DNA from: Eledone cirrhosa
Taxonomy: Eukaryota
Assembly: GCA_964016885.1 (NCBI GenBank)
Contig: OZ024741.1
Location: 169,570,001 to 169,634,000 of the forward strand
DNA: 64,000 nucleotides
Reading direction: 5' to 3'
Part shown: in pieces, positions 4,304 through 64,000 of the stretch
Position numbering within the stretch: position 1 is the stretch's first letter
How the letters are laid out: the number at the start of each line of letters is the position of its first letter
The notes under the pieces: model-generated
Seen by the model: the letters and a program-made list of their open reading frames with translations, nothing else
Database searches by the model: none
Told to the model about the DNA's origin: nothing
Program-made: the position numbers and the translations under genes

Positions 4304-7300
4304 TCAACCATTTGTATTTATCGTTGTTGTGGCCACTGCATTCGGCTGTTTTCTTGGTGTCACACCTTATAACTGTTGTGTTTTACTCTGGACAATAATG
4401 TTTAGCTTCTACATCTATTGATTGTTTTGTGATTGCCTCAAACAATTCGATTAGTACCTGCTATATGGCAGCTGAAACTTCAATTCATACCCAATATTAT
4501 ATATATAGAGAGAATTTAAAATTTAGTCCCTAGTCAATCACTATAAATAATTGTTGAGAAAATCAGGTAAAGTATCCCTAGAGACTGAAAAGAAATGGGC
4601 AGATGTGTCTGCAAGGAATCAAACTCCACGTATCTCTCAGATGCTTGACATATTCATTAACCACTATGCTAATGTACCAGTGGCCACTGTTTCCAGCTAT
4701 TTAGAAGACCTTTAAGTTTGTAACTAGAAGTATAGACAACTCAGGGATTGAATTTGTGCACTCCAGGTCAATTATCACAATTCACACTTAATCAACTGTT
4801 ATTTAGGTTATGCTAAATAACAGTTGATTAAGTGTGGATTGGCAGTATCGGTAGAGGGTTGGACGCCATGCTTTGACCAATAGAGGTACAGTCCTTCCCC
4901 TTCTGAGTTCAAATCCCGCCGAGGTTTACTTTGCCTTTCATCCTTATGGGGTCGATAAAATAAAGTACCAGTAATGCACTGGGTAATTGCTGGCCTTGTG
5001 CCAAAAGTAGAAACAGTTATTTAGGTTATGCTATTAAATCAGTATATAATGATAATTTTTTCATCTTTGAAATTCAGACAAAATGTTGACTGTTGTTGAA
5101 TTCTTTTACAGAGCACAGAACAACCTGTGACCACTGCACCGAAACCCACCCCCACCACCCCTGCTGTGGACAACAGCGATAACATTGATGATGATGCTTT
5201 TGATGATATTGATGATGATATGTTGTCTGGTGCTGTTGGGCCTGAAATTCCTTCTGTAGATCTTGGAGAGCAGGACGACAATGAGTTTGGTGTTAAGCTA
5301 AATCCAGAAGCCATATTCGATGATGAGGCATCTAAAGGTAAAATGAATGTTATCTTGTTTATCTTTTCCTCTTGGTCTTTACTATGATTTGTTATTGACC
5401 TCATTAACCTTCTATGTTATCATCGGTACCATTCCACCATTATCTACAACACCATTATTGTCATCACTACTATTATCATAACAATACTATCATTGTTATC
5501 ATCATCATGTTTATTATTGTAATCAAAACCATTTTTATCTCTATTATCACTAACAACATTGTCAGTCATAATATTGTCAATAACACCATCATTTCCATTA
5601 ACACCACTATTATCCTCACTAGTGTAGGCACATGGCTTAGTGGTTAGAGCGTTGGGCTTACAATACTGATGTTGTGAGTTTGATTCTTGGACCGGTTGTG
5701 TTCTTGAGCAAGGCACTTTATTTCATGTTGCTCCAGTTTACTCAGCTGTAGAAATGAGTTCTGACGTCACTGCTGCCAAGCTGTATCAGCCTTTCCCTTG
5801 GGCAACATCAGTGGTCTGGACCGGAGAGACTGGTGACTGGTATACATGGGCAACTGCTGGTCTCCCACAAACAAAGGGAACCCTGTGGGTTAACCCTTTA
5901 ATGTTCAAACCGGCCAAAACCGGCCAGAATTCTCTACCTTTCTCTGTTGAAACTGGCTGAAACTGGTCGCTCAAATTGATGTTAAGGTATTGTTCTCAAA
6001 ATAAATACTTTCAAAATCTCATAGATTCGATATCATGTGAGATAATTATGTGAGGTAAAGCCTTTACCATGAAAATATAATAGTATATATAGAGTAATGT
6101 GAATGCTAAAGGGTTAATACTATTAAAACTGAGAATACCTTGGTCAAATAGATCTTGAAACATTAGTTCCCTTTAATCCTTTAGCACTTAAACTGGCCAT
6201 ATTCGGCCAGAATTCTCTCAACCTCTTTCTGTTCAAACTGGCTGGAACTGACCGCTCATACTGACATTAAGGTATTGTTCTCAAAATAAATAACATCAAC
6301 ATCTCGTAGATTTGATATTAAGTGAGATATTATGTAAAGTAAAACCTTTACCATAAAGATACAATAGTAAATATAAAGTAATATAAACGCTAAAGGATTA
6401 AAAGTCTGCTTTGTTGTGCACTGCACATACACTCAGAAAAAGTGTTGTCTGTCTAAGGTCCTTGTTAGTCAACAGGCAGGAAAGATCCAGTAATGATCAT
6501 ATGTACTGTGCAAACCATTATATAATACTACTACTAATAATAATAATTATAATTGTTTCTACTTTTGGCACAAGGTCAGCAATTACCCAGTGCATTACTG
6601 GTACTTTATTTTATCGACCCTGTAAGGATGAAAGGCAAAGTTAACCTCGATGGGATTTGAACTCGTAATGGAAAGGGCCATAACTCTATGCTGTTAAGCA
6701 TGGCGTCTGACCCTCTACCGATACTGCCAATCCACTGCGAATAATTATAATATTAAGATATACAGTCTGTTCACTTTCTACGCGAACTTGAAGTACGCGA
6801 ATTTACTTTAACGCCTCTTGAAAAAGTATTATTAAATATTCCCTTTGCACGAATAATGCACTATAGTGCGTATGGTTTAACATTTTTTTTATTCATCAGA
6901 AATATAATATAACATTAGAATTGACAAAGGAAATCATCAGAAATAATAATATAGTATTCTTTGATGACTTTCGGCCAGTATTGGCCCAAGCCATGTCTAA
7001 CTTAATAGCACCACCTGGCATTTTTATTAAATTGTTTCTCTCTCTCTCTAACTCCACTGACAGTCTCTACTGTATTGAATTGTTATTGTCCTTGAATTAT
7101 GCGAATTTGCTTTACGCGCCGCATTCATGAAGCACTTTCGTTTAAAAAGCAAGCATACTGTATAGATACTCTTTATAAAAGTGAGGGGTCATTAATAATT
7201 TAATCTGCTTTTAGATGCAGCTTCTAATATGTCTGATGGAGAAAGTATTGCTCCTGAACAACCAACTACTGCCGTTCCATACAATGAGCCAAAAATACTT

Positions 7301-20600: not shown

Positions 20601-23600
20601 CTCTGTCACATCTTCTGGTAAGGATATAATCTATCTGACTGGCTTGTTCCCCTGATCTATAGGTGATCAAGTGATTGTCTCGTTTTTTGAAGTTTGTGTT
20701 ACAGATAGTTAGGTTATTTGCGTCACAGAATTCCAGGATTCTGGAGCCTTCCTCATTTCTAGTACCAAACCCATAGCCGTCATAGCCGTCACAATGTTGT
20801 CCAACGTGACCATTTAGGTCGCCAGCAATAATTATGTAATCACTGTCAGTTATTTGGGAGGGAGTGAGCATTAGTGACTCATAGAATCTGTCTTTTATAA
20901 CGCCAGGAAGTCCGGATTGGGGTGCATACGTGAATATTATTGTCACAGTAGTTCTATTTAGGACAAGTCTTATTTTAATTATTCTGTCATTCACTCTATT
21001 TACGTCTATTATCTTATCTACCCATTTTTCTGCTACCATGATTCCTACTCCACCCAGCCCATTGTCATTTCCTACCGAGAAAAGTTTATAGCATCGTTTT
21101 TTACCCACAATGAATCTAGCAGACCCACCCCTCCACTTGGTCTCTTGAATACAGCAAACATCAAGTTCCTTACGTTCAAGCATCTTTACAACCTTGTTAG
21201 AGCAACCTTTTAAAGTGCCTACATTCATGATACTAACTCTGAAGTTTTGGATTTCGTTCTGTGGGTGGAAAGGATGGGTTGGAGGTGCAGGGAGGGGTGA
21301 GGGAGATGGGGTTATGTTAGCCATCCGCGTTCGAAATAAAGAGGAGGAGTCCTTGCATTCTCGTCTGGCAACATGAGGTGAATTTGTCTTTATCTTTGGC
21401 ATTGTCATTGAGTGTCCAGATTTTTCAGACTCTCCAGAATTCCATAGTCCATCTAGAATATCGAAAAGCAACCAGGTCTAAACTTAAGAAGTGATATTAT
21501 AAGCTGCTGAATTATGATTGGACCAAATAATAATGGTGGCGAGTGGGGTCTGGGGGAGTTAGCGAGAAGGTTATTTTATAATAATATAATCCTAGAATTT
21601 CGGCCATAATTAAATGAGCATATAACAGTAATAAGAGTAAGAGTTTAATACAAGTAGAAGATCATTTTCGGGGGTCTGACAGAATCATGGGAGTTTAAAA
21701 TACAAGAAGATTGTTTTGAACAATCAAACAGAATTATCGAATAGCATTGAAAAGAAAAGATTGGATTTTGGACGATATAATACAGATAGATGAATGGACC
21801 AGGGAACATGGAGAGATGAGAAAAAAGTAGGATGAGTACATTACATTTCACAAAAGAGCGAATAGCATTGAAAAGAAAAGATTGGATTCTGGACGATATA
21901 ATACAGATAGATGAATGGACCAGGGAACATGGAGAGTTGAGAAAAAAATAGGATGAGTACATTACATTCACAAAAGAGCGAGCGAGCGGTGTAGCCAAGC
22001 TTAAGGGATCGACAAATTCTGAGTTTCGTAGCTCACAACAAGTTTATTTTATATTTGGAGAGAGGGGAGGGGTGAAGAAGAGGAGAGGGTTGGAAGAAGT
22101 TTCGAGAAGGTTATTTTATAATACTAGCAGTGGTACCCGGCGTTGCACGGGATAAGGTATTTTGGAACGCGGGCCGCCAATAGACCTAATCGTGGAGAAA
22201 CTGCATGCCTGGACAATATGTAAAGAAAATCAACCGAATACTCTGATGGCTGGATAATCTTTAAGATTTTCCTCAATGAAGCAGGAAAAATACAGGTTTT
22301 CACCTAAGGGATCAAGAAAATGAATTTTTTTTATGTGCATAATATGCCTTGAAATTTCGGGAAAAATCGGCTAGATGTAATGTCTCCAAAAAGCCCTAAG
22401 AAGCTGAAAAAATGAAGTTTTTCACCTAATGCGGGCCTTAGGCCATAAGAAATTGGATTTTCTTTGCTTACGGTATGAAGAAGAGACTGACTAATACATA
22501 GTTACAATTTCAAGGAAATCGGTCTGACATAACGCCTCAAAAAACCCCTAAAAATGTTAAAAAACGCAGTTTTTCACCTAATGCGGGGCCCTAGGAGATC
22601 AGAAAGTTGAATTTTTATGTGCATAACACTTCCTGAAACATAAGTAATACACATGTAAAGTTTGAAAAACATCGGCTGGGTACTTCTCAAATTTTAGGGA
22701 TTCAAACTCGCAGACAGTCAGACATACAGACAGATATTATAAGGACGCGACGTTATATGTATGTATCTATCTAAAAAGAGAAACACTAAGAATTATAGAG
22801 CGAGATCGCTAAATCGCCTAATGCGGACCCTAGCGCATTGAAAATTTGAAATTTTTTTTTGCTCAGAACACTCCCTGAAACATAAGTATTACATGTGCAA
22901 AGTTTGAAAACAGTTGGTTTGGTGCTTCTCTACAATACTAACCGGTAAAATAGTAACTTTTGTTCTCATAAAGGCACGTAAGTAAACAAACTGAAGCTAT
23001 TATAGCGAAACAGATATTATAAGGGCGCGACGTTATATGTATGTATCTATCTAAAAAGAGAAAGACCAAGAATTATAGAGAAAGATCGCTAAATCGCCTA
23101 ATGTGGTCCCAAGGGCATAGAAAATTAGAAATTTTGCTCAGAACACTCCCTGAAACATAAGTATTACATGTGTAAAGTTTGAAAACAGTCGGTTGGGTGG
23201 TTCTCGAGTTTTAGCGATTCAAACTCACACACACACAGACAGACATCCTCAGTTTCATATATATATAGACTAGCAGAAAACCACCCGGTGGGCGGTTTTC
23301 TGCTAGTATATATATATATTACACACACAGAAATGTATATATATTTCTGTGTGTATATATATATATATATATATATTACACACACAGAAATGTATATATA
23401 TTTCTGTGTGTATATATATATATATTACACACACAGAAATGTATATATATTTCTGTGTGTATATATATATATTTCTGTGTGTGTATATATATATATATTA
23501 CACACACACACAGAAATGTATATATGTTTCTGTAGCACTCCTCAATTCCCCCCTCTCTCCCTCCCGCTATCCCCCTCTTGTAGTCTGTCTCTTTCTTTCA

Positions 23601-25715
23601 CTCTCACTCTACGCGTGCGCAAAAAACATTCGCACGCGCGCACGTGTTTTAGCGTCTATTCACTCTCTCTCTCTCCCTCCCGCTATCCCCCTCTCGTAGT
23701 CTGTCTCTTTCTTTCACTCTCACTCTCTCTCTACGCGCGTGCAAAAAACATTCGCACGCGTGCACGTGTTTCCACTGTCGGACAGACAGACAGAGAAATT
23801 GCTGGTTATATATTATAAGGAGATAATCCTAGAATTTCGGCCATAATTAAATGAACATATAACAGTAATAAGAGTAAGAGTTTAATACAAGTAGAAGATC
23901 GTTTTCGGGAGTCTGACAGAATTATGGGATTTTAAAATACAAGAAGATTGTTTTGAACAATCAAACAGAATTATTGAATAGCATTGAAAAGTAAAGATTG
24001 GATTCTGGACGATATAATACAGATAGATGAATGGACGAGGGAACATGGAGAGATGAGAAAAAAATAGGATGAGTACATTACATTAATACAAAACTGCTTG
24101 TTTTAAAATCTTTATCATCATCATCACTGTTTAGCATCTATTTTACATGCTTGTATGGGATAGATGGGCTGTCACATTATGAGGCTAAACAGATCAGCTG
24201 ACCACATCTTGCTCATATACTCTGTTTTGGGAGAACATTTTTCAATGTCGAAAAGGTCCTTTTTAGAATACTCTGCAAAAGAGATTTCTTCCAGATATAT
24301 AGGCAGTTGCTTTATCTAAACAATCGGACAATATGTGGAACCAAAGTAACAAAAATTAAACTTAAATCGGATATACACTCACTTACAATATCAACTGTGT
24401 TGCTCTGTGTTTGCTGGTAATGGTTTGATTTTTTTTTTGTGTTTTTTTGGTTTTTGTCTTGTTTTTGGTCTTTTTTTTATGGAGAATGCCCTTCCACATT
24501 TCAGCATCTACAGGGAGCTTTTTTTCATAGTTTACAGGGTGGACTGGGTGCTTTTTTTGTTCGTCTAGTTTGTATTCATCGAAAAGCTTTCCATTGTAAT
24601 TTTACATTAGAAACTTCTTTAAGCTATGTTCCAAACACCAGCTTAGTAATGAGTAAGTTAGTAAAATCACTAAATCCCTTAAAATATTTGATTATTTTCA
24701 GTCTTTTGAAAATTATAAGCTTTAATTTTCATTAGAAATATGGTAACGAAAGTATTAAGACAGCTCTGATAGTATAGAACCTACTGACGGCTACCTACTT
24801 TTGTTTTTAACAGGCTATCACTGCCACTGACACATGGGTTGCTGTGGCCACTAGTATACGACTTCTCCGACTTTTCACCATCACTGGAGTTCAAAAAGAA
24901 ATCCTCACTCTTGCAGGTCCTGTCGTTTGTCTATCTGGTTTTAAAGACTTCTTGATGGTTGTCTACCATCGAGGTGGTGGTAAGTACACTACAGACTTTT
25001 TATTTGGGAAGATTGGTTTCTTTTATTTTTCATGGTTTTGTTTACAAGTGGATTATTGTTGACTTCCACCTTGTGTATGTATGTGCGTGCACACACACAC
25101 ACTTATATATATATATATATATAATTAAAATTAAGCTTCAGTATAGCTGTATACATACGTGTATGTGAATTTAGTATATCTAAAGATATGTATGGTATGT
25201 TTGATAAATAAACATTTCGAAAGGCCAGCTGTGAATAGAAAGGGTGACGGCCAGTGCCATCTAGCGGATTCCAACAGAAGCAGCGTAGGATAACTGTCTA
25301 TGCATTTCGAGCTCTGGCTCAAAATGCATAGACGGTTATCTTCCTACACATACATACGCACACACATACATATATATATATGTATATATTTGGCTTAGTG
25401 GTTAGAGCATTGGCCTTGCAATCGAAAGGTTGTGAGTTCAATTCTCAGACCGGGCAAATGTGTTGTTTCCTTGAGCAAGGCACTTTATTTCACATTGCTC
25501 CAGTTTACTCAGCTGTAGAAATGAGATGATAGGGACTGGGGTCCCTATCATTCCACTGCAAAGTGGTCGTGGAGGTGCCACGGCAAAAAAAGCACCCAGC
25601 ATTCACTGTAAATGAGGTTGGTGTTAGGAAGGGCATCCAGCTGTAGAAATCAAGCCAAAATCAGTTCCCGTCCCACCCTTGCAAGCAGGGAAAAAGCTGA
25701 TGTAAAATGAAATGA

Positions 25716-28700: not shown

Positions 28701-31700
28701 GCCAGACTTGTCTCATGATGTGGATAACCTGTCTAACCTATGCAGGCATGGAAAATAGATGTTAAATGGTGCTGATGATGACTGCACTCATTTCATGAAA
28801 GTTTCTCTCCATGACACAAAAATTACACATACAAATTATAAATGCATTCAAATATATACACACAGCCACAGGTTGTAGACTGTATCTTCTGGATAAATTT
28901 AGCAATCTTACAACTTATGGTATATCACCTCTTAACACTGACAAGCTTGCTGTCTCTTGAGACTTCTGGGAGTTGTTGGCAGCTTGTACAAACAAAAGCA
29001 AAGCCAAAATATAATAATAATAACAATAATCTTATTATAATTGTTGGTGTGTTTCGTCCATTCGTTAATACATTATACTTTAGTTACATACACACACATC
29101 TACACATAAATGCATAAACAGATACACAGACCACAGAAGTGCAAACACACACACACACAGATCTACTCATATATATTCATAAATAGACACATCATACAAA
29201 ATAATTATTACATACACACACATATCTATGGTTGAGGAAGGAAGCGGCTGGTGAAACGCTATAGCGATGAGTGTTCCAGAGTAGCTACACTTGTATGTAT
29301 GCGTTTGTGTGAGTGTATGTGAGCGTTTGTGTGAGTGTATGTGTGTGTTTTATGTGAGTGTGTTTGGGCATTTATTTTTATAGACTCATACATATAAATG
29401 TATGAGTCTATAAAAATAAGGAGGCATATGGCTTAGTGGTTAGAGCATTGGCCTTGCAATCGAAAGGTTGTGAGTTCAATTCTCAGACCGGGTGATGTGT
29501 TGTTTCCTTGAGCAAGACACTTTATTTCACATTGCTCCAGTTTACTCAGCTGTAGAAATGAGATGATAGGACTGGGGTCCATATCATTCCACTGCAAAGT
29601 GGTCGTGCAGGTGCCACGGCAAAAAAGCACCCAGCACTCACTGTAAATGAGGTTGGTGTTAGGAAGGGCATCCAGCTGTAGAAATCAAGCCAGAATCAGT
29701 TCCCGTCCCACCCTTGCAAGCAGGGAAAAGCAGACGTCAAAATGAAATGATATGCCATATACACATACATACACACAGTTGTGAGGAATTGTGTATGTAC
29801 AGAGACAGGCAATGAATGAAGAGATAATATACAACTAGATAAATGTCTCTTAAATAGCTCCTCTTAATCTTTTCATCCGTGGAATTTCCCTGGGTCTCGC
29901 TAGTAATAATAATAGTAATAAAAATTATAAAGATCTGGCAATAGAAACAGGTCAAATGTGGATGATGAAAAACAGAGGACCCCGTACTGTCGAGATCCTC
30001 CACAAGATTGGAGCCTTGGTGGCCCCCTCTGAGGAGGGAGCCCCATGAGGTTGGGTGGCTGTTGCAGCGGGTGTGACTGGCCATCGTCCACGAAGCGCAG
30101 CACTTCTGCCCTCTTGCTCTAGGTCCAAAGACCAATCACCCTCCCCCTTCACCCCTCCCTCTCTTCTGCAACACCAGAGCTCTTGCTATCCCCTCTCCTT
30201 CCTGTTTTTTTTCTTTATATTTCCCTATTCTTTCTTTCCTTTTGTTTCCTCCCTGTTTTTTTTTATTACTGCCATCATTATAGTTGTCATACGGGGTCGA
30301 TAAAATAAAGTACCAGTAATGCACTGGGTAATTGCTGGCCTTGTGCCTAAAGTAAAAACAATTATTATTGTTCGGGCACCATGCTTTGCAGCAAAGAGTT
30401 ACGGCCCTTTATAGTCTGAGTTCAAATCCCGCTGAGGTTAACTTTGCCTTTCATCCTTACGGGGTCGATAAAATAAAGTACCAGTAATACACTGGGATAA
30501 TTGCTGACCTTGTGCCAAAAGTAGAAACAATTATTATTATTATTAATGGCGGTGAATTGGCAGTATCAGTAGAGGGCCGGACGCCATGCTTTGCAACAGA
30601 GTTACTGTCCTTTACGATCTGAGTTCAAATCCCACCGAGGTTAACTTTGCCTTTCATCCTTACGGGGTCGATAAAATAAAGTACCAGTAATGCACTGAGA
30701 TAATTGCTGGCCTTGTGCCAACTGTAGAAACAGTTATTATTATTATTATTGTTATTGTAAATAATTGTTTCTACTATTGGCACAAGGCCAGCAATTATCT
30801 CAGTACATTACTGGTACTTTATTTTATCGACCCCCGTAAGGATGAAAGGCAAAGTTAACCTCGGCGGGATTTGAACTCAGAATGGCAAGGGTCATAACTC
30901 TATGCGTCAAAGCATATATAAATACATATTGGCAGTATCGGTAGATACTGCCAATTCACCGTTATTGTAAATGATATCATGTTTATACAGTTATGTAAAT
31001 GATATCATGTTTATACAGTTATTGTAAATGATATCATGTTTATACAGTTATGTATTTATATATGCTTTGAGAATCATAAAAAAACTCACAATAGACAGAT
31101 CTATAACTAAAACTCCAGAACTTACAAATGTATAAAACTTACAAAACATAGCACTACTAGGCACAGTACATATATTATGAAGAGTACTCTTAATACTCCA
31201 TTGTAGCCTAGTGGTAAGGGTGTTGGACTTATGATCATAATGTTGTGGGTTCGATTCCTGGGCTGGGTTGTGTGTTGTGTTCTTGAGCAAAACACTTCAT
31301 TTCACATTGCTCCAGTATACTCAGCTGAAAATGAGTACCAGCAATAGCTGGGTGTGTAACCCTGCGATAGACTGGCGTCATGTCCAGTGGGAAGTCTTGT
31401 ACTCCCAGTCGCTTCACGCCATGACACTGGGATAAGCATCGGCCTAACGAGCCTTAAATGGTTGAAGACAGACTTTAGACTTTTAGACTCTCAATACAAT
31501 AGAACCAACAACTTCAAAGCAACTCTGCACTGACGACATGTAATAAATAAAATAATAATATGTTGACATCAATATGGTTGCTCTGAACACCAACACACCA
31601 ATAGCAACATCACCATCACTATCACCATCACCAACTTTACCTTACATCTCATTGTGCTCCTCTATATTTCAGGCTAAAGGAAAATCAGACTATTTCTGGA

Positions 31701-32438: not shown

Positions 32439-33100
32439 GAAAAATGCACATAAAAACGATGATGATGATATATATATATATATGTATGTATATGTATATA
32501 TACATATTGATTTATTGTTATACTTTGGGAGGATCATATATATATATAATTCAGAATGGTTTTCTGAAGCGGAACATAAGAGAACCATTGTTAAATAAGG
32601 TAATCAATACATTAGTAGTGAAGGTACATGTTTCTTTATTTCTTTCAGTCATTTGAATTCATTTGGAAAGTCTTTCCTGATTACAAATGAATATAACAGT
32701 TCTAGTCATGTAAAAGGCATAAGTGGTTGTGTAGGTGTCACGACAAAACGCTCCCAGCCCACACTGTAAAGTGGTCGTGTAGGTGTCACGACAAAACGCT
32801 CCCAGCCCACACTGTAAAGTGGTCGTGTAGGTGTCATGACAAAAAGCACTCAGCCCACACTGTAAAGGGGTTGTGTAGGTGTCACGACAAAAAGCACCCA
32901 GTCCACAATGTAAAGTGGTCGTGTAGGTGTCATGACAAAAAGCACCCAGCCCACACTGTAAATGCGGTTGGCATTAGTAAGGGCATCCAGCCGAAGAAAC
33001 CAAGCCAGAAACAGTTCTGTGAGCAAAACACTGTCACCTGACCCAAATAGGACAACACCCGTCTAACCCATGCTAGCATGGAAAAATGGATGTTAAACAG

Positions 33101-46100: not shown

Positions 46101-48124
46101 CACACATTCACACAAATGTAGTTCACACATTCACACAAACATGACTCACACATCCACACAAATGTAGTTCACACATTCACACAAACATGACTCACACATT
46201 CACACAAATGTAGTTCACACATTCACACAAACATGACTCACACATTCACACAAATGTAGTTCACACATTCACACAAACATGACTCACACATTCACACAAA
46301 TGTAGTTCACACATTCACACAAACATGACTCACACATACACACAAATGTAGTTCATACATTCACACTAACATGGCTCACCCATACACACAAATGTAGTTC
46401 ATACATTCACACTAACATGGCTCACTCATTCACTCAAATGTTGTTCACATATTCACACAAACATGGCTCACTCATTCACTCAAATGTTGTTCACATATTC
46501 ACACTAGCACAAGTCTAAACACAAACATAGCTCACACTTTCATATAAACCAACAGCAAACACAGGCATGAACACACACACACATACTCACACACAATCTT
46601 CATTATTTATTACTTTATATCTGCATTCTGTGGTGGCCTGAGTGGGATGTGTCATCACAGACTGAGTCAGTTCTTATTCAGTTATTCAGAGTTACTGTCC
46701 TAAACAGGTCAGAGGTCCATGTTTCACTCATGTTCTCTTTTTGGCATTGTCTCTGGTTGGATATCTTTTCTTACAACAACCTCTTTATAGAGTATTGGAT
46801 CTATTTCACCATGGCACCAGCATTTCTAATCCTGTCAATACAAACCTGTATAATCATCATCATCATCATCATCATTTTACATCCACTTTTCCCTGCTTGC
46901 AAGGGTGGGACGGGAACTGATTCTGGCTTGATTTCTACAGCTGGATGCCCTTCCTAACACCAACCTCATTTACAATGAGTGCTGGGTGCTTTTTTGCAGT
47001 GGAATGATATGGACCCCAGTCCCTATCATCTCATTTCTACAGCTGAGTAAACTGGAGCAATGTGAAATAAAGTGTCTTGCTCAAGGAAACAACACATCAC
47101 CCGGTCTGAGAATTGAACTCACGACCTTTCGATTGCATGGCCAATGTTCTAACCACTAAGCCATGTGCTTCCATAGATCATTTGTATTAAAATATATATT
47201 TGAAATGTGATTAAATTATATTTCCATACAATAGTGGTGTTAAGTTTAATACTACAAGTAAAATAGTTGTATCAGATGAAAGAATGGTATTTAACTAATG
47301 TATTGGTACGCGATGGGGCCCACCCACAGCCCCGGCGGACAGAATGGAGAAGGCATTTCCCCAGAGGACGGCAAGGGAGATGCGCCAGTGGTGTTAGTGA
47401 TGGTGATAATAGTAGTATTTGTGAACCTAATAGTGGCAGTGATAGTAGTATTAGTGGTAGTGGTGTTAGTGATGGTGATAATAGTAGTATTTGTGAACCT
47501 AATAGTGGCAGTGATAGTAGTATTAGTAGTAGTGGTTGTAGTGGTGATGGTGATAATAGTAGTATTTGTGAACCTAATAGTGGCAGTGATAGTAGTATTA
47601 GTGGTAGTGGTTGTAGTGGTGTTAGTGATGGTGATAATAGTAGTATTAGTGGTAGTGGTTGTAGTGGTGTTAGTGATGGTGATAATAGTAGTATTTGTGA
47701 ACCTAATAGTGACAGTGATAGTAGTATTAGTGGTTGTAGTGGTAGTGGTTGTAGATGGTGATAATTATAGTGTTTGTTGTGGGTGGATGATTGTAATAGT
47801 TGTATTTGTAGTGGCTCAGGATGTTTGTTGGTGCTTAGTGGATATTATGGTCACGGCTGGTGGTTTTCCAATAGATGCAACAGTTCGAACACAGCAAGTC
47901 TTACATTGTTCCATTTCCATCTGTTGTAGATTTGGTCTCAGAAGGTCAGTGATAAATCTGAAGAAGAGAAATCTGCAAAGAAACGTAAACGAGCTAATGA
48001 GGAACCCCAGGGTGGCAGTGGTAATGGTAAAGCGTCTGGACAGAAAACTGACCGCAAGAAGAAAAAAATCCTGTCTCAAGAAACAAACTCTAAACTCTTC
48101 AATTTCATGTTCAAAAAAGACTGA
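407..48124 (+). CDS. WDHD1: WDHD1 / And-1 / Ctf4 (WD repeat and HMG-box DNA-binding protein 1), 3' part of gene, 19 coding exons; 5' exons outside window
   Basis: Spliced frame of 2677 nt with GT-AG introns and matching phases. Peptides are colinear with vertebrate WDHD1 as I recall it: [117 protein letters not shown] (HMG), [12 protein letters not shown]. Confidence 0.96.
2584..2634 (+). CDS. WDHD1: WDHD1 exon ([17 protein letters not shown])
   Basis: Polypyrimidine-tag acceptor, gtatgt donor, phase 0/0; resembles human GNLGLLENV. Confidence 0.85.
5112..5337 (+). CDS. WDHD1: WDHD1 exon, acidic linker ([13 protein letters not shown]...DDEASK)
   Basis: ttttacag acceptor, G|gtaaaa donor; Asp-rich linker at the expected position between WD40 and SepB. 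Confidence 0.8.
5890..6117 (+). mobile_element. piggyBac-type MITE (TTAA|CCCTTTA...TAAAGGG|TTAA); other copies at 2823-3038, 6173-6401, 16784-17143 (-), 27818-28005, 35713-35927
   Basis: TTAA on both sides, CCCTTTAGCATT-like TIRs, shared internal sequence of about 200 bp, no ORF. Confidence 0.8.
6761..7162. mobile_element. Tigger/pogo-type MITE
   Basis: TA|CAGT...ACTG|TA termini and repeated subterminal (t)acgcgaa(c/t)tt motifs. Confidence 0.55.
7215..7357 (+). CDS. WDHD1: WDHD1 exon (...[20 protein letters not shown]), start of SepB domain
   Basis: ttttag acceptor, ATG|gtaagt donor; conserved FQ.GSTP.HLT.RFM motif. Confidence 0.95.
8040..8580 (+). mobile_element. RTE family A 3' fragment
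   Basis: [11 protein letters not shown]...DRDLWRY peptide followed by the family A 3' UTR and (GAT)n tail. Confidence 0.85.
10027..10217 (+). CDS. WDHD1: WDHD1 exon ([34 protein letters not shown]...)
   Basis: ctacag acceptor, AG|gtcagt donor; conserved WNSIG and DxEFHD motifs. Confidence 0.95.
10691..13091 (-). mobile_element. RTE-clade LINE, family A, 5'-truncated (RT + PHD + C-terminus + 3' UTR, (GAT)n tail)
   Basis: ORF 12028-13143 has RT motifs ([23 protein letters not shown]); ORF 11464-11982 continues it. Candidate TSD CAAGCATC at 10686-10693 and 13092-13099. Confidence 0.93.
13219..13909 (-). mobile_element. RTE-clade LINE, family B, 5'-truncated, inserted in (TA)n
   Basis: ORFs 13439-13849 (FRYLGD, LHGSETW) and 13233-13460 (GRGRPRKTW); tail ...cccacccttgcaagcagggaaaagcggacgtaaaa(tga)n. 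Confidence 0.9.
15104..15315 (+). mobile_element. tRNA-derived SINE family 1 (representative); further copies at about 2040-2550, 4834-5018, 6553-6736 (-), 15521-15625 (-), 16483-16664 (-), 16911-17022, 30290-30915, 43762-43950, 52742-53112, 58058-58240, 59233-59772 (-)
   Basis: A-box-like tggcagtatcggtaga, B-box gagttcaaatccc, conserved core gcctttcatccttacggggtcgataaaataaagtaccagt (resembles the MetaSINE domain, from memory), (ATT)n tail. Confidence 0.85.
15358..15439 (+). CDS. WDHD1: WDHD1 exon ([28 protein letters not shown])
   Basis: tctgtag acceptor, TTG|gtaaat donor; resembles human SKLHCLHFSSWDSSKEW. Confidence 0.95.
22124..23269 (-). mobile_element. Non-autonomous Helitron (copy 1)
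   Basis: Minus strand starts TCTATATATA..., ends with hairpin CCCGTGCAACGCCGGG then CTAG|T; internal duplication of about 190 bp. Confidence 0.8.
23270..23823 (-). mobile_element. Non-autonomous Helitron (copy 2), head-to-tail with copy 1
   Basis: Minus strand A|TCTCCTTATAATATATA... ends GGTTTTCTGCTAG. The empty site can be inferred from the intact duplicate of the host sequence at about 21563-21620. No TSD. Confidence 0.72.
24814..24979 (+). CDS. WDHD1: WDHD1 exon ([38 protein letters not shown]...YHRGG)
   Basis: aacag acceptor, G|gtaagt donor; conserved RLFT..GVQKE...LAGPVV. Confidence 0.95.
25823..25937 (+). CDS. WDHD1: WDHD1 exon ([13 protein letters not shown]...[13 protein letters not shown])
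   Basis: tttcag acceptor, GG|gtaagt donor. Confidence 0.93.
26633..26741 (+). CDS. WDHD1: WDHD1 exon ([36 protein letters not shown])
   Basis: tctttag acceptor, gtaagt donor; conserved FSAEGTP and WTP. Confidence 0.95.
28410..28810 (+). mobile_element. R4/Dong-like non-LTR retrotransposon 3' remnant, split by a SINE-tail insertion at about 28607-28780
   Basis: Degenerate peptide [20 protein letters not shown]...VIRALRLI...[12 protein letters not shown] matches the REL C-terminus pattern of R4/Dong elements. Confidence 0.6.
29420..29752 (+). mobile_element. tRNA-derived SINE family 2 with RTE-B tail (representative); copies at 7624-7963 (-), 25391-25720, 36712-37043 (-), 46853-47172 (-)
   Basis: A-box tggcttagtggttagagc, B-box gagttcaattc, core ccttgagcaagacactttatttcac, 3' end matching the RTE family B tail. 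Confidence 0.85.
29977..30265 (+). mobile_element. Shorter remnant of the same CRE-like family
   Basis: Reverse-complement homology to about 55880-56185 (ggaccccgtactg.cgag...gggtgtgactggccatcgtc...accagagctcttgc). Confidence 0.75.
31673..31734 (+). CDS. WDHD1: WDHD1 exon ([21 protein letters not shown])
   Basis: tttcag acceptor, AG|gtaaat donor. Confidence 0.93.
31864..32360 (+). mobile_element. RTE family B 3' fragment
   Basis: ORF 31894-32343, closely similar to the 13219-13909 copy. Confidence 0.9.
34257..34371 (+). CDS. WDHD1: WDHD1 exon ([16 protein letters not shown]...EKSQYE)
   Basis: attcag acceptor, GAA|gtatgt donor; conserved [12 protein letters not shown]. Confidence 0.95.
37907..38038 (+). 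CDS. WDHD1: WDHD1 exon (EKFWRMNF...EELMKLFA)
   Basis: tttcag acceptor, GCA|gtaaga donor. Confidence 0.93.
38569..38826 (-). mobile_element. RTE-X/Expander(Rex3)-like LINE 3' remnant; shorter copy at about 43480-43665
   Basis: Minus-strand translation [19 protein letters not shown]...[19 protein letters not shown]...[13 protein letters not shown]. Confidence 0.75.
39580..39881 (+). CDS. WDHD1: WDHD1 exon ([18 protein letters not shown]...[22 protein letters not shown]...KPR)
   Basis: gtttcag acceptor, AG|gtaaat donor; SepB helical bundle motifs ERE.RA and LA.KYA. Confidence 0.93.
40294..40568 (+). CDS. WDHD1: WDHD1 exon, acidic disordered region (PENNRGW...SETPNS)
   Basis: ttttaag acceptor, G|gtgagt donor; open frame with matching phases. 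Confidence 0.82.
41736..41800 (+). CDS. WDHD1: WDHD1 exon ([21 protein letters not shown])
   Basis: ttgcag acceptor, AAA|gtaaga donor; conserved NPFK. Confidence 0.88.
42879..43004 (+). CDS. WDHD1: WDHD1 exon ([20 protein letters not shown]...GSRK)
   Basis: caacag acceptor, AAG|gtaaat donor, phase 0/0. Confidence 0.82.
43336..43436 (+). CDS. WDHD1: WDHD1 exon ([15 protein letters not shown]...KSSEK)
   Basis: cacag acceptor, AT|gtaagt donor; phase 2 matches the next exon. Confidence 0.78.
45019..45160 (+). CDS. WDHD1: WDHD1 exon, HMG box ([24 protein letters not shown]...LPSEEKE)
   Basis: tatcag acceptor, GAG|gtgagt donor; resembles human PKTGFQMWLEENR...LSTEERK. Confidence 0.93.
45790..46505. 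repeat. 46-bp higher-order minisatellite built from two 23-bp subunits
   Basis: cacacattcacacaaatgtagtt alternates with cacacattcacacaaacatgact. Confidence 0.92.
47388..47765. repeat. Degenerate (GTA/GTG)n array with a higher-order unit of about 66-70 bp
   Basis: Recurring gatggtgataatagtagtatttgtgaacctaatagtggcagtgatagtagtattagt. Confidence 0.85.
47930..48124 (+). CDS. WDHD1: WDHD1 terminal coding exon (IWSQK...KKRKR...[12 protein letters not shown])
   Basis: ttgtag acceptor; basic NLS-like KKRKR; C-terminus resembles human NQKLSAFAFKQE; TGA at 48122-48124. Confidence 0.93.
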   Translation: MWSQKVSDKSEEEKSAKKRKRANEEPQGGSGNGKASGQKTDRKKKKILSQETNSKLFNFMFKKD

Positions 48125-48329: not shown

Positions 48330-48461
48330 TACAGGGTGAGGCCCCCCCCCCCCTAAAAAAAATATATATATATATATATATACACACTTCAACAGCATTC
48401 TAATAAATATTGCCTGTACAGGTGCTCAAAGTATATATATATTTTGGGGGGACATCCTGTA
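48330..48461. mobile_element. Tc1/mariner-type MITE; related copy at 48714-48808 in the opposite orientation
   Basis: TA|CAGGGTG...CA(T/C)CCTG|TA termini and shared core attctaataaatattgcctgta. Confidence 0.65.
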
Positions 48462-48857
48462 TATATAGTCATACTTATAATTTTACAATGTGTGAATACA
48501 TGCATACATACATACATGCTCACATGCATGCAAGTATACTGCATATTGAGAATGTACATATGAGTGTGTGTGTGTGTGTTAATTTATGTGCTCTTATAGT
48601 TGTGTATATGTGTGTATATATAAAGTCAAACTTCTCTACATAATGTGTGTCACTGATCATTCATTTACATAGTTGTTGGGGTGTACTGTACACACACAAT
48701 ATATATATATATACACAGGGTGTCCCCAAAAGATGTATACACATTTTCATTACCTATACAGGCAATATTTATTAGAATGGTGTATACATGTTTTGTGGAC
48801 ACTCTGTATATATATTGCATGTGTGTTTGCTGAAGTATGCGCTTTCATAGTTTTTTA

Positions 48858-50152
48858 CATGTGTGAGTATATTTTCATACATGTGTGTGTATATTTTCAT
48901 ACATGTGTGTGTATATTTTCATACATGTGTGTGTGTATATTTTCATACATGTGTGTGTATATTTTCATACATGTGTGTGTATATTTTCATACATGTATGT
49001 GTATATTTTCATACATGTGTGTGTATATTTTCGTACATGTGTGTATATATTTTCGTACATGTGTGTTTATATTTTCATACATGTGTGTGTATATTTTCAT
49101 ACATGTGTGTGTATATTTTCATACGTGTGTGTATATTTTCATACATGTGTGTGTATATTTTCATACATGTGTGTGTATATTTTCATACATGTGTGTATAT
49201 ATTTTCGTACATGTGTGTTTATATTTTCATACATGTGTGTGTATATTTTCATACGTGTGTATATTTTCATACATGTGTGTGTATATTTTCTTACATGTGT
49301 GTGTATATTTTCATACATGTGTGTGTATATTTTCATACATGTGTGTGTATATTTTCATACATGTGTGTGTATATTTTCATACATGTATGTGTATATTTTC
49401 ATACATGTGTGTGTATATTTTCATACATGTGTGTGTATATTTTCATACATGTGTGTGTATATTTTCATACATGTGTGTGTATATTTTCATACATGTATGT
49501 GTATATTTTCATACATGTATGTGTATATTTTCATACATGTGTGTGTATATTTTCTTACATGTGTGTGTGTATATTTTCATACATGTGTGTGTATATTTTC
49601 ATACATGTGTGTGTATATTGTCATACATGTGTGTGTATATTTTCTTACATGTGTGTGTATATTTTCTTACATGTGTGTGTATATTTTCATACATGTATGT
49701 GTATATTTTCTTACATGTGTGTGTATATTTTCTTACATGTGTGTGTATATTTTCGTACATGTGTGTATATATTTTCATACATGTGTGTGTATATTTTCAT
49801 ACATGTGTGTGTATATATTCATACATGTATGTGTATATTTTCATACATGTGTGTGTATATTTTCATACATGTGTGTGTATATTTTCGTACATGTGTGTGT
49901 ATATTTTCATACATGTGTGTGTATATTTTCATACATGTGTGTGTATATTTTCGTACATGTGTGTATATATTTTCGTACATGTGTGTGTATATTTTCATAC
50001 ATGTGTGTGTATATTTTCATACATGTGTGTGTATATTTTCATACATGTGTGTGTATATTTTCATACATGTGTGTGTATATTTTCATACATGTGTGTGTAT
50101 ATTTTCATACATGTGTGTGTATATTTTCATACATGTGTGTGTATATTTTCAT
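48858..50152. repeat. 22-bp minisatellite, about 59 units
   Basis: Unit acatgtgtgtgtatattttcat, highly homogeneous. Confidence 0.97.
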
Positions 50153-50720: not shown

Positions 50721-50770
<50 letters not shown>

Positions 50771-50775
<5 letters not shown>

Positions 50776-51364
50776 TCTGAATTTGTTTAGCAAGATTCTT
50801 TATCTGAAATCGTGTGTTGAAACCGATATTGTTATACTTTGGGAGGGTCATGTTGCCAATAAGAAACACACGCACCAGTTGCTTTCACTTCAATTTATTA
50901 TAATAAATTTATAATAAATTTATAAATTTATAAATTTCTGGTTGGTTGGTTGGTTCCACAACCAGATAGTTGTTTATATATTGTCATAGTTCTTTCGTCA
51001 CACACTCTGTGACCTCTTCAGTGACTGGGGATTCCTTTCTTTGTTTCTGTGCCTCTCCTTTGTTCTGTCCTACACCATTTTGTTTCTGTGTGTGTCACAC
51101 ACAGAAACAAAATGGTGTAGGACAGAACAAAGGAGAGGCACAGAAACAAAGAAAGGAATCCCCAGTCACTGAAGAGGTCACAGAGTGTGTGACGAAAGAA
51201 CTATGACAATATATAAACAACTATCTGGTTGTGGAACCAACCAACCAACCAGAAATTTATAAATTTATAAATTTATTATAAATTTATTATAATAAATTGA
51301 AGTGAAAGCAACTGGTGCGTGTGTTTCTTATTGGCAACATGACCCTCCCAAAGTATAACAATAT
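50771..51364. mobile_element. Fold-back PLE terminal fragment containing a perfect palindrome (50826-51364)
   Basis: 50771-51094 is homologous to about 63255-63577; 269-bp arms around a single T at 51095; flanked by (TA)n on both sides. Confidence 0.9.
51165..51207 (+). ncRNA. Minimal type I hammerhead ribozyme (mirror copy on - strand at 50983-51025)
   Basis: GTCA-CTGAAGA-G-GTCACA(gagtg)TGTGAC-GAAA-G(aa)CT-A-TGAC gives stem I GTCA/TGAC, intact core, stem II and a 2-bp stem III. Predicted cleavage 3' of 51203. Confidence 0.75.
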
Positions 51365-53459
51365 ATATATATATATATATATATATTTGTGCTTCAAAGC
51401 CTGAAATATCAAATCAAATACAATCACTTTAAAAAGCTTCAGGATGTTATTATTTTTAAGTCAAGATTTAAATTAAAATAAAAAAAAGACAATTTTCTAA
51501 TGATCTTCACTAATTTAATTCCTGTACGAAATTAAAAAAGCAAATTGTCCATGCTCAATTCATTTTAAGGCAAGTTGCTTTCTGGTTAAGGTACTGAATT
51601 TGATTCTTGAACAGGGCATTTCACGTTGCTTTCCTATGAAGTACAACCTTGTAAAATGCTAGCTAAACCTACATAGGTGTAAGCTGTAAATTTAATCTAA
51701 TTTATTTTATATGTTACATTTGCAGTTGTAATTTCTAAACCTTTTAAAAATTATTTTTATCATTTAATAAGTGATAAAGTTGGAGTGTCAATCAAAAATG
51801 TTTTTGAGATTGAATTTGTTCATTCTTTTTTTCCTGCACCAGTTATATATTAGGGTCAATTTTATTGACCAATCCCTTCATCTAAATTTCAAGCCTTGTG
51901 CCAATGTAAAAATAATGACTGTTATTAATATTGAAACTACAGTGGATGGCAGAATTGTTAGAGTATTGGAGAAAAATGCCTTGCAGTATTATTTGTTTTG
52001 GCTCTTTACATTCTGAGTTCAAATTCTACTTAGATCAACTTAGCTTGTTTCCTTCCAAAGTAAATAAAATAAAATACCAGTAATGTTCTGCGGTTGATTT
52101 TACTTGACAGCCGATCTACTGTACTTACATATAGTAGGCTAACATGGTTTAGTAAATCACAATTCCCCACACAACAGTATGGCTCCATTGACAGATGTAG
52201 TATCACATTGATTGGAGTACATTTTCAACTGAGAAACACCATATATTACTGTAAACACATACACACATACATGAACATCCTATTATTTACATATACTCAT
52301 TCTCTCTCCTTTTCTATCACCCTCACTTCTGTCTCCCTATCTTTCTCTCCCTCTAAAAAGAGATATCACAAAAAGATAAAACAGAAATAGATAGAATACC
52401 CAGGGGTTTAGCCCTGCGATGGACTCGTGTCCTGACCAGGGGAAGAGTTTTGTACTCTCAGTCTCTTCACATCATGAAACCGGGATACGCACTGGCCTAA
52501 TGAGTTTTCTGGCTTAAGACAGACTTTAGACTTAGACTTTAGACGTTGTGGTATTTAGTCAAATCTCCTTATATAGTCTTCATTTTCTAGTGAGGTCAAT
52601 TTTATTTCTTATTCTCCTTCCCCAGAGTCAATAAAATAAACTAGCAGTCAAGTACTAGCACCTCCAACCCATTAATCAACTCTATTTCGTCCTCAAAACT
52701 TGTGACCCTGTATCTATATTTGAACTCCATTATTTCATAGTGGCAATATCGGTAGAGGGTCGGACGCCATGCTTTGACGCATAGAGTTACGGCTCTTTAC
52801 AGTCTAAGTTCAAATCCCGCCGAGGGTAACTTTGCCTTTCATCCTTACGGGGTCGATAAAATAAAGTACCAGTAATGTACTGGGTAATTACTGGCCTTGT
52901 GCCAAAAGTCCAAAAGTAGAAACAATTATTTCATAGTGGCAGTATCGGTAGAGGGTCGGACACCATGCTTTGACGCATAAAGTTATGGCCCTTGCCATTC
53001 TGAGTTCAAATCCCGCTGAGGTTAACTTTGCCTTTCATCCTTACGGGATCGATAAAATAAAGTACCAGTAATGCACTGGGTAATTGGTGGCCTTGTGCCA
53101 AAAGTAGAAACAATTATTTCATAGTAATGGATATTTTAAAATAAATCATTTATTTTGGCTTTGATTTTAATCTTAAAACATTTGTTTTAATTCCATTTTT
53201 CATTTTCAACGATTTTTTTTGTTATCTTACAACAAAACAGAATCCTCCACACACAACCCAAAATATATTTCGTTTTTAATAAATAAAAAATAACTATAAT
53301 AAACATATTATTTTGATTTTATTTATTTATTTATATACTTATTCCAAGATAAGACACACTTCAATTTTAAAATAATCTTTTAAGTTATTGCTTGTGATTC
53401 AAACTTGTCTTCACTATATGCTCATTAAAAAATCGGTTGTATAAAAATCTGTTAACCAT

Positions 53460-62164: not shown

Positions 62165-62355
62165 TAATAAAAGGAATTCCAGCTTTGTCTGATTTACTCG
62201 TTTTATTTACAATCCTTTAAAATTTATAATGGTATTAGAATGAAATAGTATGGTAGAATATTAAATGTTAAGTGTTAATTGACAGTCAAGTTTGCAATTT
62301 TCAACTGAAAATTTTCACAGTTGAAAATTGCCAACTTGACTGTCACCACAGAATA

Positions 62356-62857: not shown

Positions 62858-63142
62858 TATTTACGTATCGAGAGAGAGAAAAAAAAGGGGAAGATAGGTG
62901 ATACATATAGTTATTTGCCAAGTAGCGTATGCCAAAGGTGCTCGATACTAGTGCCGGCAGTATTAAATATTCGAAGTGTTAATATTTAGTGGGCTAGAGA
63001 GTTAGCAGAGCCTAAGCACGTGGGAAAGTAAGAAATCGGAGAATAGAGCGTTAAAACATGTTTATTTAAAACAGCACCTACGTACGTTTCGCCCAGTTGG
63101 GCTTCTCAAGGGCATAAATAATCAAAAGTTTTGATTTTTTAT

Positions 63143-63182
63143 GCCCTTGAGAAGCCCAACTGGGCGAAACGTACGTAGGTGG
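63143..63182 (+). ncRNA. Minimal type I hammerhead variant with U3-A8 core (mirror copy on - strand at about 63074-63113)
   Basis: GCCC-TTGAGAA-GCCCA(ac)TGGGC-GAAA-CGTACG-T-A-GG. The core has U3/A8 in place of C3/G8; loop III is palindromic (ACGTACGT); stem I is short. Confidence 0.6.
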
Positions 63183-63254
63183 TGTTTTAAATAAACATGT
63201 TTTAACGGTCTATTCTCCGATTTCTTACTTTCCCACGTATATATATATATATAT

Positions 63255-64000
63255 TTCGTTTCTGAATTTGTTTAGCAAGATTCTTTATCTGAAAACGTGT
63301 GTTGAAACCGATATTGTTATACTTTGGGAGGGTCATGTTGCCAATAAGAAACACACGCACCAGTTGCTTTTACTTCAATTTATTATAAATTAAATTTATA
63401 AATTTAGGAATTTATATAATTTCCGGTTGGTTGGTTCCACAACCAGACGATTGTTCATATATTGTCAAAGTTCTTTCGTCACGCATTCTGTGACCTATTC
63501 AGTGACTGGGGATTCTTTTCTTTGTTTTTGTGCCTTTCCTTTGTTCTGTCCTACGCCATCTTGTTTTTGTGTGTGTGTTGTGTGCTTAGTTTGCGCATGT
63601 GTTACATCCGGGTGTCTGTGTGTGTTTATATTTGTTTATTTATTTGTTTATTTACATGTTACTGGTTGGTTGTTTGTTCTATGCGTGTGTGTGTTTTCAT
63701 TTTGTCCTTAATTGTAAGTTGTGATGTTGCTATTCCATTCATGCTTTCTATTTAATTTTGGTTGGAGTTCATTTATGTTTATTGCCTCTGTGATTTGTCT
63801 AAACATTGCGTCTTTTCTGTGTGTAGATTCTATTTTTATTTCTATGTTCTCTAATTTACCCTTATGTTCTATTTTAGAATGTTGGTAGAATACAGATGAT
63901 TCTTTACTATCTTGAAGCTCTCGCCAGTGTTCATTTATCCGTTCTCCTATACTACGAGCTGTCTCACCTATGTACACTATATTCTTTTGACTAAAGGAAT
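63255..64000 (-). mobile_element. Penelope-like element (PLE): 3' end of ORF with GIY-YIG endonuclease plus 3' terminal repeat; runs off the window
   Basis: ORF 63708-63977 VYIGETARSIGERINEH...H...H...RQITEAINI...PKLN is a PLE-type GIY-YIG C-terminus. The downstream region contains a hammerhead-like motif and ends at a (TA)n tract. Confidence 0.9.

What the first reader, a model, noticed from the sequence alone, without database searches (positions are those of the whole stretch)
50826..51364. Perfect 539-bp palindrome (269-bp arms, 1-nt loop) of a Penelope terminal repeat with a hammerhead on each strand
The arms read as exact reverse complements around T51095, turning at a short tgtgtgtg/cacacaca tract that suggests snap-back priming. 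The result is an intact CUGAAGA...GAAA hammerhead on both strands (51165-51207 + and 50983-51025 -), so a transcript in either direction could self-cleave or fold into a 269-bp hairpin that masks the ribozyme. Spacer-less palindromes this long are normally unstable, which implies a very recent origin or ongoing homogenisation (inference). It lies about 2.7 kb downstream of the WDHD1 stop.
Basis: partly seen in the sequence, partly recalled or inferred. Interest (0 to 1): 0.75.

Follow-up and report, generated by a model that had tools for sequence, protein, structure and literature searches.

The report
Head-to-head Penelope retrotransposon end stump
This perfect 539-base palindrome is two back-to-back copies of the ribozyme-bearing end of an abundant Penelope-like jumping gene in a TA repeat, an insertion pattern already described for this class, and its ribozyme is predicted to be buried in the hairpin rather than active.

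Summary
The palindrome is exact: 269-bp arms around T51095. It is the end repeat (pLTR) of an endonuclease-bearing Penelope-like element. A second copy at 63258-64000 (91% identical) runs into a GIY-YIG frame whose homologues are RT-EN proteins. The insert is 592 bp: the left arm carries a 53-nt tail, and (TA)n flanks both sides. Inverted pLTR, tail and (TA)n target are published features of these elements. This scan noted such palindromes before (138 findings, at least 28 genomes).

The hammerhead is the minimal pLTR type. Its core and stems do not vary across the family (0 of 33 positions, against 5 of 10 free ones). In a through-transcript it is predicted to be fully masked.

Snap-back at a TG/CA tract is not supported: the CA half is only the mirror image, and 6 of 6 fold-back joints in public runs show no microhomology. 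Homogenisation is not needed. Most likely both target ends were primed at two RT start sites; this is inferred. The exact window junction was not seen in reads. Verdict: real and ordinary.

The parts
50725..50771 (.). left (TA)n target tract, 47 nt
50773..50825 (-). one-sided 53-nt tail; ends 79 nt after the ATG at 50851, the same end as copy 2 (long boundary, inferred RT start site)
50826..51094 (-). left arm: pLTR in sense on the minus strand (3' UTR part, hammerhead, AT-rich 5' UTR, ATG at 50851)
50983..51025 (-). minimal type I hammerhead motif, minus strand
51095..51095 (.). 1-nt centre; 70 nt upstream of stem I and 108 nt upstream of the predicted cut site
51096..51364 (+). right arm: inverted pLTR ending about 26 nt after its ATG (short boundary; the last ATAT merges with the target)
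51165..51207 (+). minimal type I hammerhead motif, plus strand; N17 at 51203
51361..51386 (.). right (TA)n target tract, 26 nt
63258..64000 (-). second copy of the same family, 91% identical over the 322 nt shared; same long end; core decayed to CUGAAUA; runs off the window
63708..63998 (-). C-terminal 96 aa of the element's GIY-YIG endonuclease plus stop codon, in copy 2
32513..32537 (-). 25-nt stub of the same family, from the ATG to the short boundary, beside (TA)n

Best explanation
The palindrome is a short head-to-head insertion of the hammerhead-bearing end repeat of an abundant endonuclease-bearing Penelope-like retrotransposon in a (TA)n tract, likely made in one event in which both target ends were used as primers. 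Shown: family identity, orientation (ORF starts face outward), the two outer boundaries (+79 and about +26 from the ATG, each shared with another copy in the window), the target, and that both arms keep sequence 5' of the predicted cut site. Inferred: the RT-EN protein nicked both strands of (TA)n. It started reverse transcription at the +79 site on one end and the +26 site on the other, copied an uncut RNA to the same stop point in the CA-rich 3' UTR tract, and the two cDNA ends were joined without homology. The arms are therefore identical from birth. The hammerhead is a passenger, conserved for the parent element's sake; in this copy it is predicted to be masked in any transcript that crosses both arms.
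For: Copy 2 links the repeat to a GIY-YIG frame: 506 proteins at E up to 0.001. Of the 151 homologues show a YIG-type motif; 37 of the 50 with enough upstream sequence have the CX2-6CxxC linker; 5 of the 6 of 400 aa or more have an RT YVDD-type motif. The 96-aa frame scores 74 bits on a profile of 12 full-length homologues and is the only hit among 1,543 open stretches of the window. Boundaries recur at copy 2 and at the 32.5-kb stub. The family is abundant: 3,756 of 16.3 million contigs in X1, 123,570 of 12.47 million reads in X22, 114,613 of 12.79 million in X23. Of 15 listed joints, 6 are fold-backs, 3 of these 6 occur in two runs, and all 6 have zero shared letters. Folding predicts masking. 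Published: inverted pLTR with junction palindromes and tail (PMC3846280, PMC8557442, passages). A purified PLE protein cleaves and extends both strands from two internal start sites that bracket the tail, on uncut RNA (PMC11167929, parts 1-2 of 4).
Against: The exact window junction (51095/51094) is not among the 15 joints listed (1 more not shown), and no listed piece spans the stretch. Four of the 6 read joints are near-symmetric (offsets 0, 3, 5, 8 nt), which a single cDNA turning back explains equally well. The arms are identical, so they cannot tell one template from two. The tail is 53 nt against the published 30-40. That the tail encodes the ORF start was not confirmed by homology: pairwise E 0.095, 656 of 5,000 shuffles as good, profile test negative with 1,080 of 2,000 shuffles as good. 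RT and linker of this family lie outside the window. Rfam gives no hammerhead hit.
Confidence: 0.72

Rival explanations
1. Same element, but one cDNA only: reverse transcription began at +79, the cDNA end turned back on itself at the truncation point and was copied back to about +26.
For: Turn offsets are small: 1 nt here, 1 nt at 63128, and 0, 3, 5 and 8 nt in 4 of 6 read joints. Arms are identical. Self-priming was proposed for such junctions in PMC3846280 (passage).
Against: No microhomology at 6 of 6 joints by the tool, and at most 1 nt on recomputation with the window's letters; the source copies' own letters may differ. It does not explain why the short arm stops at a boundary that a separate stub also uses. 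Two joints have offsets of 61 and 91 nt.
Confidence: 0.25
2. Assembly or library artefact (fold-back chimera).
For: The exact junction was not seen in the four runs laid, and no long reads were available.
Against: Both arms stop at the element's own boundaries and rejoin different unique flanks through (TA)n. A second palindrome of another family in the window has mismatched arms. Fold-back joints of this family recur in two samples, and one in two studies.
Confidence: 0.05
3. An older palindrome kept perfect by arm-to-arm gene conversion.
For: Zero mismatches. Both arms share a minority letter at 51074, where G has 92% of X1 depth.
Against: That letter is not private: it is the majority in X4. 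381 of 3,756 X1 contigs are at least 99% alike, so a near-identical subfamily exists. Nothing needs conversion.
Confidence: 0.06
4. A host-used element: a WDHD1 read-through hairpin or ribozyme switch, a source of double-stranded or small RNA.
For: It lies 2,702 bp downstream of the presumed WDHD1 stop; a through-transcript would form a -480 kcal/mol hairpin.
Against: An AATAAA lies at 48402, 280 nt after the stop, and two more lie inside the left arm on the plus strand. A 1.4-kb tandem array intervenes. The copy is young.
Confidence: 0.04

Closest known systems
EN+ Penelope-like insertions with inverted pLTR and tail (Adineta vaga Pen2/Pen3, PMC3846280; scheme in PMC8557442 fig. 2 legend; passages read)
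   Same: Head-to-head inverted pLTR, palindrome at the junction, pLTR that includes the ORF start, one-sided tail, (TA)n target without a readable TSD.
   Different: No ORF body between the repeats. The tail is 53 nt, not 30-40. The arms are equal at the centre to within 1 nt.
Neptune/Nematis-type PLEs (CX2-5CxxC linker, C-terminal GIY-YIG; PMC8557442)
   Same: C-terminal GIY-YIG with the YIGET, R, H, E and N positions in copy 2; homologues carry the linker and RT; microsatellite target.
   Different: The family's own linker and RT are outside the window. The best homologues are only 45-55% identical. No tree was built, so Neptune versus Nematis is not resolved.
[quoted passage not shown]
   Same: Type I, 4-bp helix I, 6-bp helix II with G10.1-C11.1, an extra base after A9, vestigial helix III. 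The paper also notes pairs of such motifs 100-700 bp apart on opposite strands.
   Different: The extra base is G (consensus H). Loop 3 is AA, with GA and AG variants, and is not self-complementary.
PAc (Poseidon of Anolis) in vitro (PMC11167929)
   Same: Two internal RT start sites that bracket the tail, both strands extended, uncut RNA used as template.
   Different: Different clade. There the hammerhead overlaps the ORF start; here the cut site lies about 135 nt upstream of the ATG.
Non-LTR retrozymes (bioRxiv 10.64898/2026.07.22.740005, part 1 of 5)
   Same: Non-coding, type I hammerhead, related to pLTRs.
   Different: No head-to-tail tandem of monomers; one ribozyme per strand; the sequence is continuous with a coding element (copy 2).

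Membership tests
EN+ Penelope-like element | C-terminal GIY-YIG endonuclease in the same element | tested here: met
   Copy 2, 96 aa, 49% to P0001; 74 bits on a full-length PLE profile. Pfam alone did not detect it; homologues P0002 and P0030 hit GIY-YIG below the curated cut-off.
EN+ Penelope-like element | RT domain upstream of EN in one ORF | tested here: inconclusive
   Off the window and no genome held. Present in 5 of 6 long homologues and in 12 of 12 full-length ones.
EN+ Penelope-like element | pLTR spanning 3' UTR, hammerhead and ORF start | tested here: inconclusive
   The order EN stop, UTR, hammerhead, ATG frame is shown in copy 2. The ATG frame is intact in both copies, with 1 silent change in 79 nt against 22 in the 243 nt upstream (p 0.02). 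Homology of that peptide to PLE N-termini was not significant.
EN+ Penelope-like element | Inverted 5'-truncated pLTR and one-sided tail | tested here: met
   tail 53 nt
Neptune/Nematis type | CX2-5CxxC linker before GIY-YIG | tested here: inconclusive
   Off the window; present in 37 of 50 homologues with enough upstream sequence
Neptune/Nematis type | (TA)n or microsatellite target | tested here: met
   All 3 window copies adjoin (TA)n
Minimal PLE hammerhead | CUGANGA and GAAA core, NUH triplet, helices I and II | tested here: met
   invariant at 33 of 33 constrained positions
Minimal PLE hammerhead | Palindromic 15.2-16.2 and loop 3 for dimer formation | tested here: not met
   The closing G-C is present but loop AA is not self-complementary; intermolecular helix +2.4 kcal/mol, GA variant -1.7
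Minimal PLE hammerhead | Self-cleavage | not testable with these tools
   Needs an in vitro assay
Non-LTR retrozyme | Head-to-tail tandem monomers, each with a hammerhead | tested here: not met
   One motif per strand, no tandem

The most novel reading that the evidence does not exclude
This family records the unsolved integration step of Penelope-like elements: both target ends are primed at two fixed sites (+79, +26) on one uncut RNA and joined blunt with no homology. Its hammerhead is under purifying selection although the template is uncut, and it pairs as a dimer through tandem purine-purine mismatches (AA, GA, AG) in place of the palindromic helix III thought to be general.
Probability: 0.3. 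Interest if true: 0.5.

Novelty: new member of a known kind. Interest (0 to 1): 0.2.

Why it matters
As a single locus it matters little: it is one clean example of a published insertion pattern, and it should not be annotated as a miRNA hairpin, MITE or WDHD1 regulatory RNA. The family data add two small, testable points to an open question, namely how Penelope-like elements make inverted ends and what their hammerhead does. Fold-back joints lack microhomology. The ribozyme's core and stems are invariant across subfamilies while loop 3 varies only among purines.

Tried and rejected
No whole genome is held, so there was no copy census and no full-length family member. Rfam at gathering and at E up to 10 gave no hammerhead, only generic miRNA-hairpin scores below threshold. 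Isolated hammerhead folds are not more stable than shuffles (z -1.26, 0.49, 0.28). A 36-codon open frame through the hammerhead is not the element's ORF: copy 2 has a stop in it, and the real ORF stops 133 nt before the point matching the turn. The tail peptide resembles the N-termini of P0149 and P0152 by eye but failed three tests. Run search: no RNA holder listed. Only 136 nt of one arm could be laid on reads, on 4 of 24 listed runs. RAD libraries sample copies near cut sites, so no palindrome frequency or copy number follows from them. Look-ups of earlier findings by sequence and by nearby place gave nothing. The host was not determined. I read an octopus repeat paper on a guess from sequence style (PMC13282606, passages); it had 0 occurrences of palindrom or hammerhead. 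None listed a paper that settles double priming against fold-back, but the library lacks most subscription papers. Supplement file 1 of PMC4209133 could not be searched and may list motifs with purine loop 3.

Full report
Observation. The arms 50826-51094 and 51096-51364 are exact reverse complements (269 of 269) around T51095. Its parts are stem I GUCA/UGAC, core CUGAAGA, one extra G, stem II GUCACA/UGUGAC, GAAA, G-AA-C and the triplet CUA with N17 at 51203. The full descriptor hits only these two places in the window and none in 40 shuffled windows. Rfam does not recognise it. The presumed WDHD1 stop is 2,702 bp upstream.

The insert is larger than the palindrome. The left arm continues for 53 nt (50773-50825) to a 47-nt (TA)n tract, and the right arm runs into a 26-nt (TA)n tract. 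On the minus strand the left arm and tail end in a frame that opens with an ATG at 50851 and runs 79 nt to the end. The right arm stops about 26 nt after its ATG. No target duplication can be read in (TA)n.

Family identity comes from the window itself. A second copy at 63258-63575 matches all 322 nt at 91%, ends at the same +79 base before (TA)n, and continues upstream into a 96-codon frame that runs off the window. That frame is the C-terminal half of a GIY-YIG endonuclease: 49% identical to P0001, with 506 relatives at E up to 0.001. Among the 151 homologues held then, 92 had a YIG-type motif, 37 of the 50 with enough upstream sequence had the CX2-6CxxC linker, and 5 of the 6 long ones had an RT motif. 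A profile of 12 full-length homologues scores the frame at 74 bits and finds nothing else among 1,543 open stretches. PMC8557442 (passages) gives that linker as the mark of the Neptune and Nematis clades and links it to microsatellite targets. The family's own RT and linker are outside the window, so the clade label is inferred. Copy 2 also fixes the orientation: the palindrome is head to head, with ORF starts facing out. A 25-nt stub at 32513-32537 ends within 1 nt of the short boundary. Whether the ATG frame is the true ORF start is likely but unproven. It is conserved between copies (1 silent change in 79 nt against 22 in 243), but three homology tests were not significant.

Public runs. 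Only 136 nt of one arm were laid, on 4 of the 24 listed runs. The family is very abundant: 3,756 of 16.3 million contigs in X1 (possibly the source sample), and about 1 read in 100 in two RAD libraries from other samples of the same species label. Of 15 listed joints, 6 change strand, with offsets of 0, 3, 5, 8, 61 and 91 nt. Three occur in two runs (51091/51091 with 54 and 30 reads; 51082/51085; 51077/51085, the last in two studies), which argues that such fold-backs are genomic. All 6 have zero shared letters. The window's own junction is not among those listed, so this locus is not confirmed by reads.

The ribozyme. Variants at 3% or more fall at 5 positions of the 43-nt motif: N17, both loop-3 bases and two loop-2 bases. 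That is 0 of 33 core and stem positions against 5 of 10 free positions (Fisher p 0.0003) and 13 of 93 flanking positions (p 0.02). I set the classes from the standard numbering after seeing the table, and only reads at least 85% alike were counted. The motif fits the minimal PLE hammerhead of PMC4209133 (parts 1-2 of 4, supplement passages): short helix I, long helix II, extra base after A9. That paper found no monomer cleavage and low dimer cleavage, and already noted such motifs 100-700 bp apart on opposite strands. Two departures: the extra base is G, and loop 3 is AA, not palindromic. The predicted intermolecular helix III is +2.4 kcal/mol for AA and -1.7 for the GA variant seen in 42% of X22 minus-strand reads. 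In the full 539-nt RNA the hairpin is -480 kcal/mol and stem II has probability below 1e-17; stems I and II both form only if the transcript starts after about 51025. So masking is predicted, and cleavage in a through-transcript is unlikely.

How it arose. Both arms keep 108 nt upstream of the predicted cut, so the template was not cut there. PMC11167929 (parts 1-2 of 4) shows for a purified PLE protein that both target strands are cut and extended, that reverse transcription starts at two internal sites bracketing the tail, and that uncut RNA is the main template. The two outer ends here, each shared with another copy, fit those two start sites. I therefore favour priming from both target ends and homology-free joining. 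The wording that one RNA molecule serves both ends, which would explain near-symmetric turns, I took from earlier finding e1-9925061 and could not test. A single cDNA turning back remains a real rival.

Age and stability. Zero mismatches bound arm divergence below 1.1%, and near-identical relatives exist (381 of 3,756 contigs at 99% or more), so youth suffices. Long spacerless palindromes are recombinogenic, yet a review counts 718 longer than 200 bp in the human genome (PMC7999016, passages). A second 1-nt-loop, hammerhead-bearing palindrome of another family sits 12 kb away with 3 mismatches in 110 bp.

Comparison and verdict. Head-to-head inverted pLTRs with junction palindromes and a tail are described in PMC3846280 and PMC8557442 (passages). 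This scan holds 138 findings with these words in at least 28 genomes, and 351 notes in this genome fit a similar look-up; these are unchecked notes, not support. The finding is real, a new member of a known kind, and interest is low (0.2). What it adds is read-level evidence of homology-free joints and of selection on a hammerhead with a purine loop 3.

Noticed in passing
window 63018-63238, extension to about 62865: Second head-to-head palindrome of another family: 110-bp arms, 1-nt centre at 63128, 3 mismatches, between (TA)n tracts. It has a hammerhead-like motif on each strand with the variant core UUGAGAA (PMC4209133 reports a U3-A8 variant) and a self-complementary helix III (-9.8 kcal/mol as a dimer). 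It abuts the 3' end of copy 2.
   Followed up: partly
window 63258-64000 (-): Longer 5'-open copy of the family with the GIY-YIG C-terminus intact and the hammerhead core decayed (G8 to U).
   Followed up: yes
window 810-946: Palindrome with 63-bp arms (58 matches) and an 11-nt loop, with a CTGATGA near the centre; unassigned.
   Followed up: no
window 4778-4841, 23257-23319, 29372-29419, 62280-62345: Short palindromes with arms of 22-29 bp, some at repeat or (TA)n edges.
   Followed up: no
joint 51024/51029 and loose ends at 51026: One fold-back joint (17 reads, X22) and many loose ends fall at the 5' edge of hammerhead stem I, perhaps other subfamilies that share only the ribozyme.
   Followed up: no
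window about 48750-50150: A 22-nt tandem array of about 1.4 kb between the WDHD1 stop and the palindrome.
   Followed up: no
window 47315-47821: 72-nt-type low-complexity repeats with long open frames just before the presumed last WDHD1 exon.
   Followed up: no
window 4828-58232, at least 8 copies; 25390-25449: A 186-nt dispersed repeat with a tRNA-like head (SINE-like); one Rfam tRNA hit at 25390-25449.
   Followed up: no
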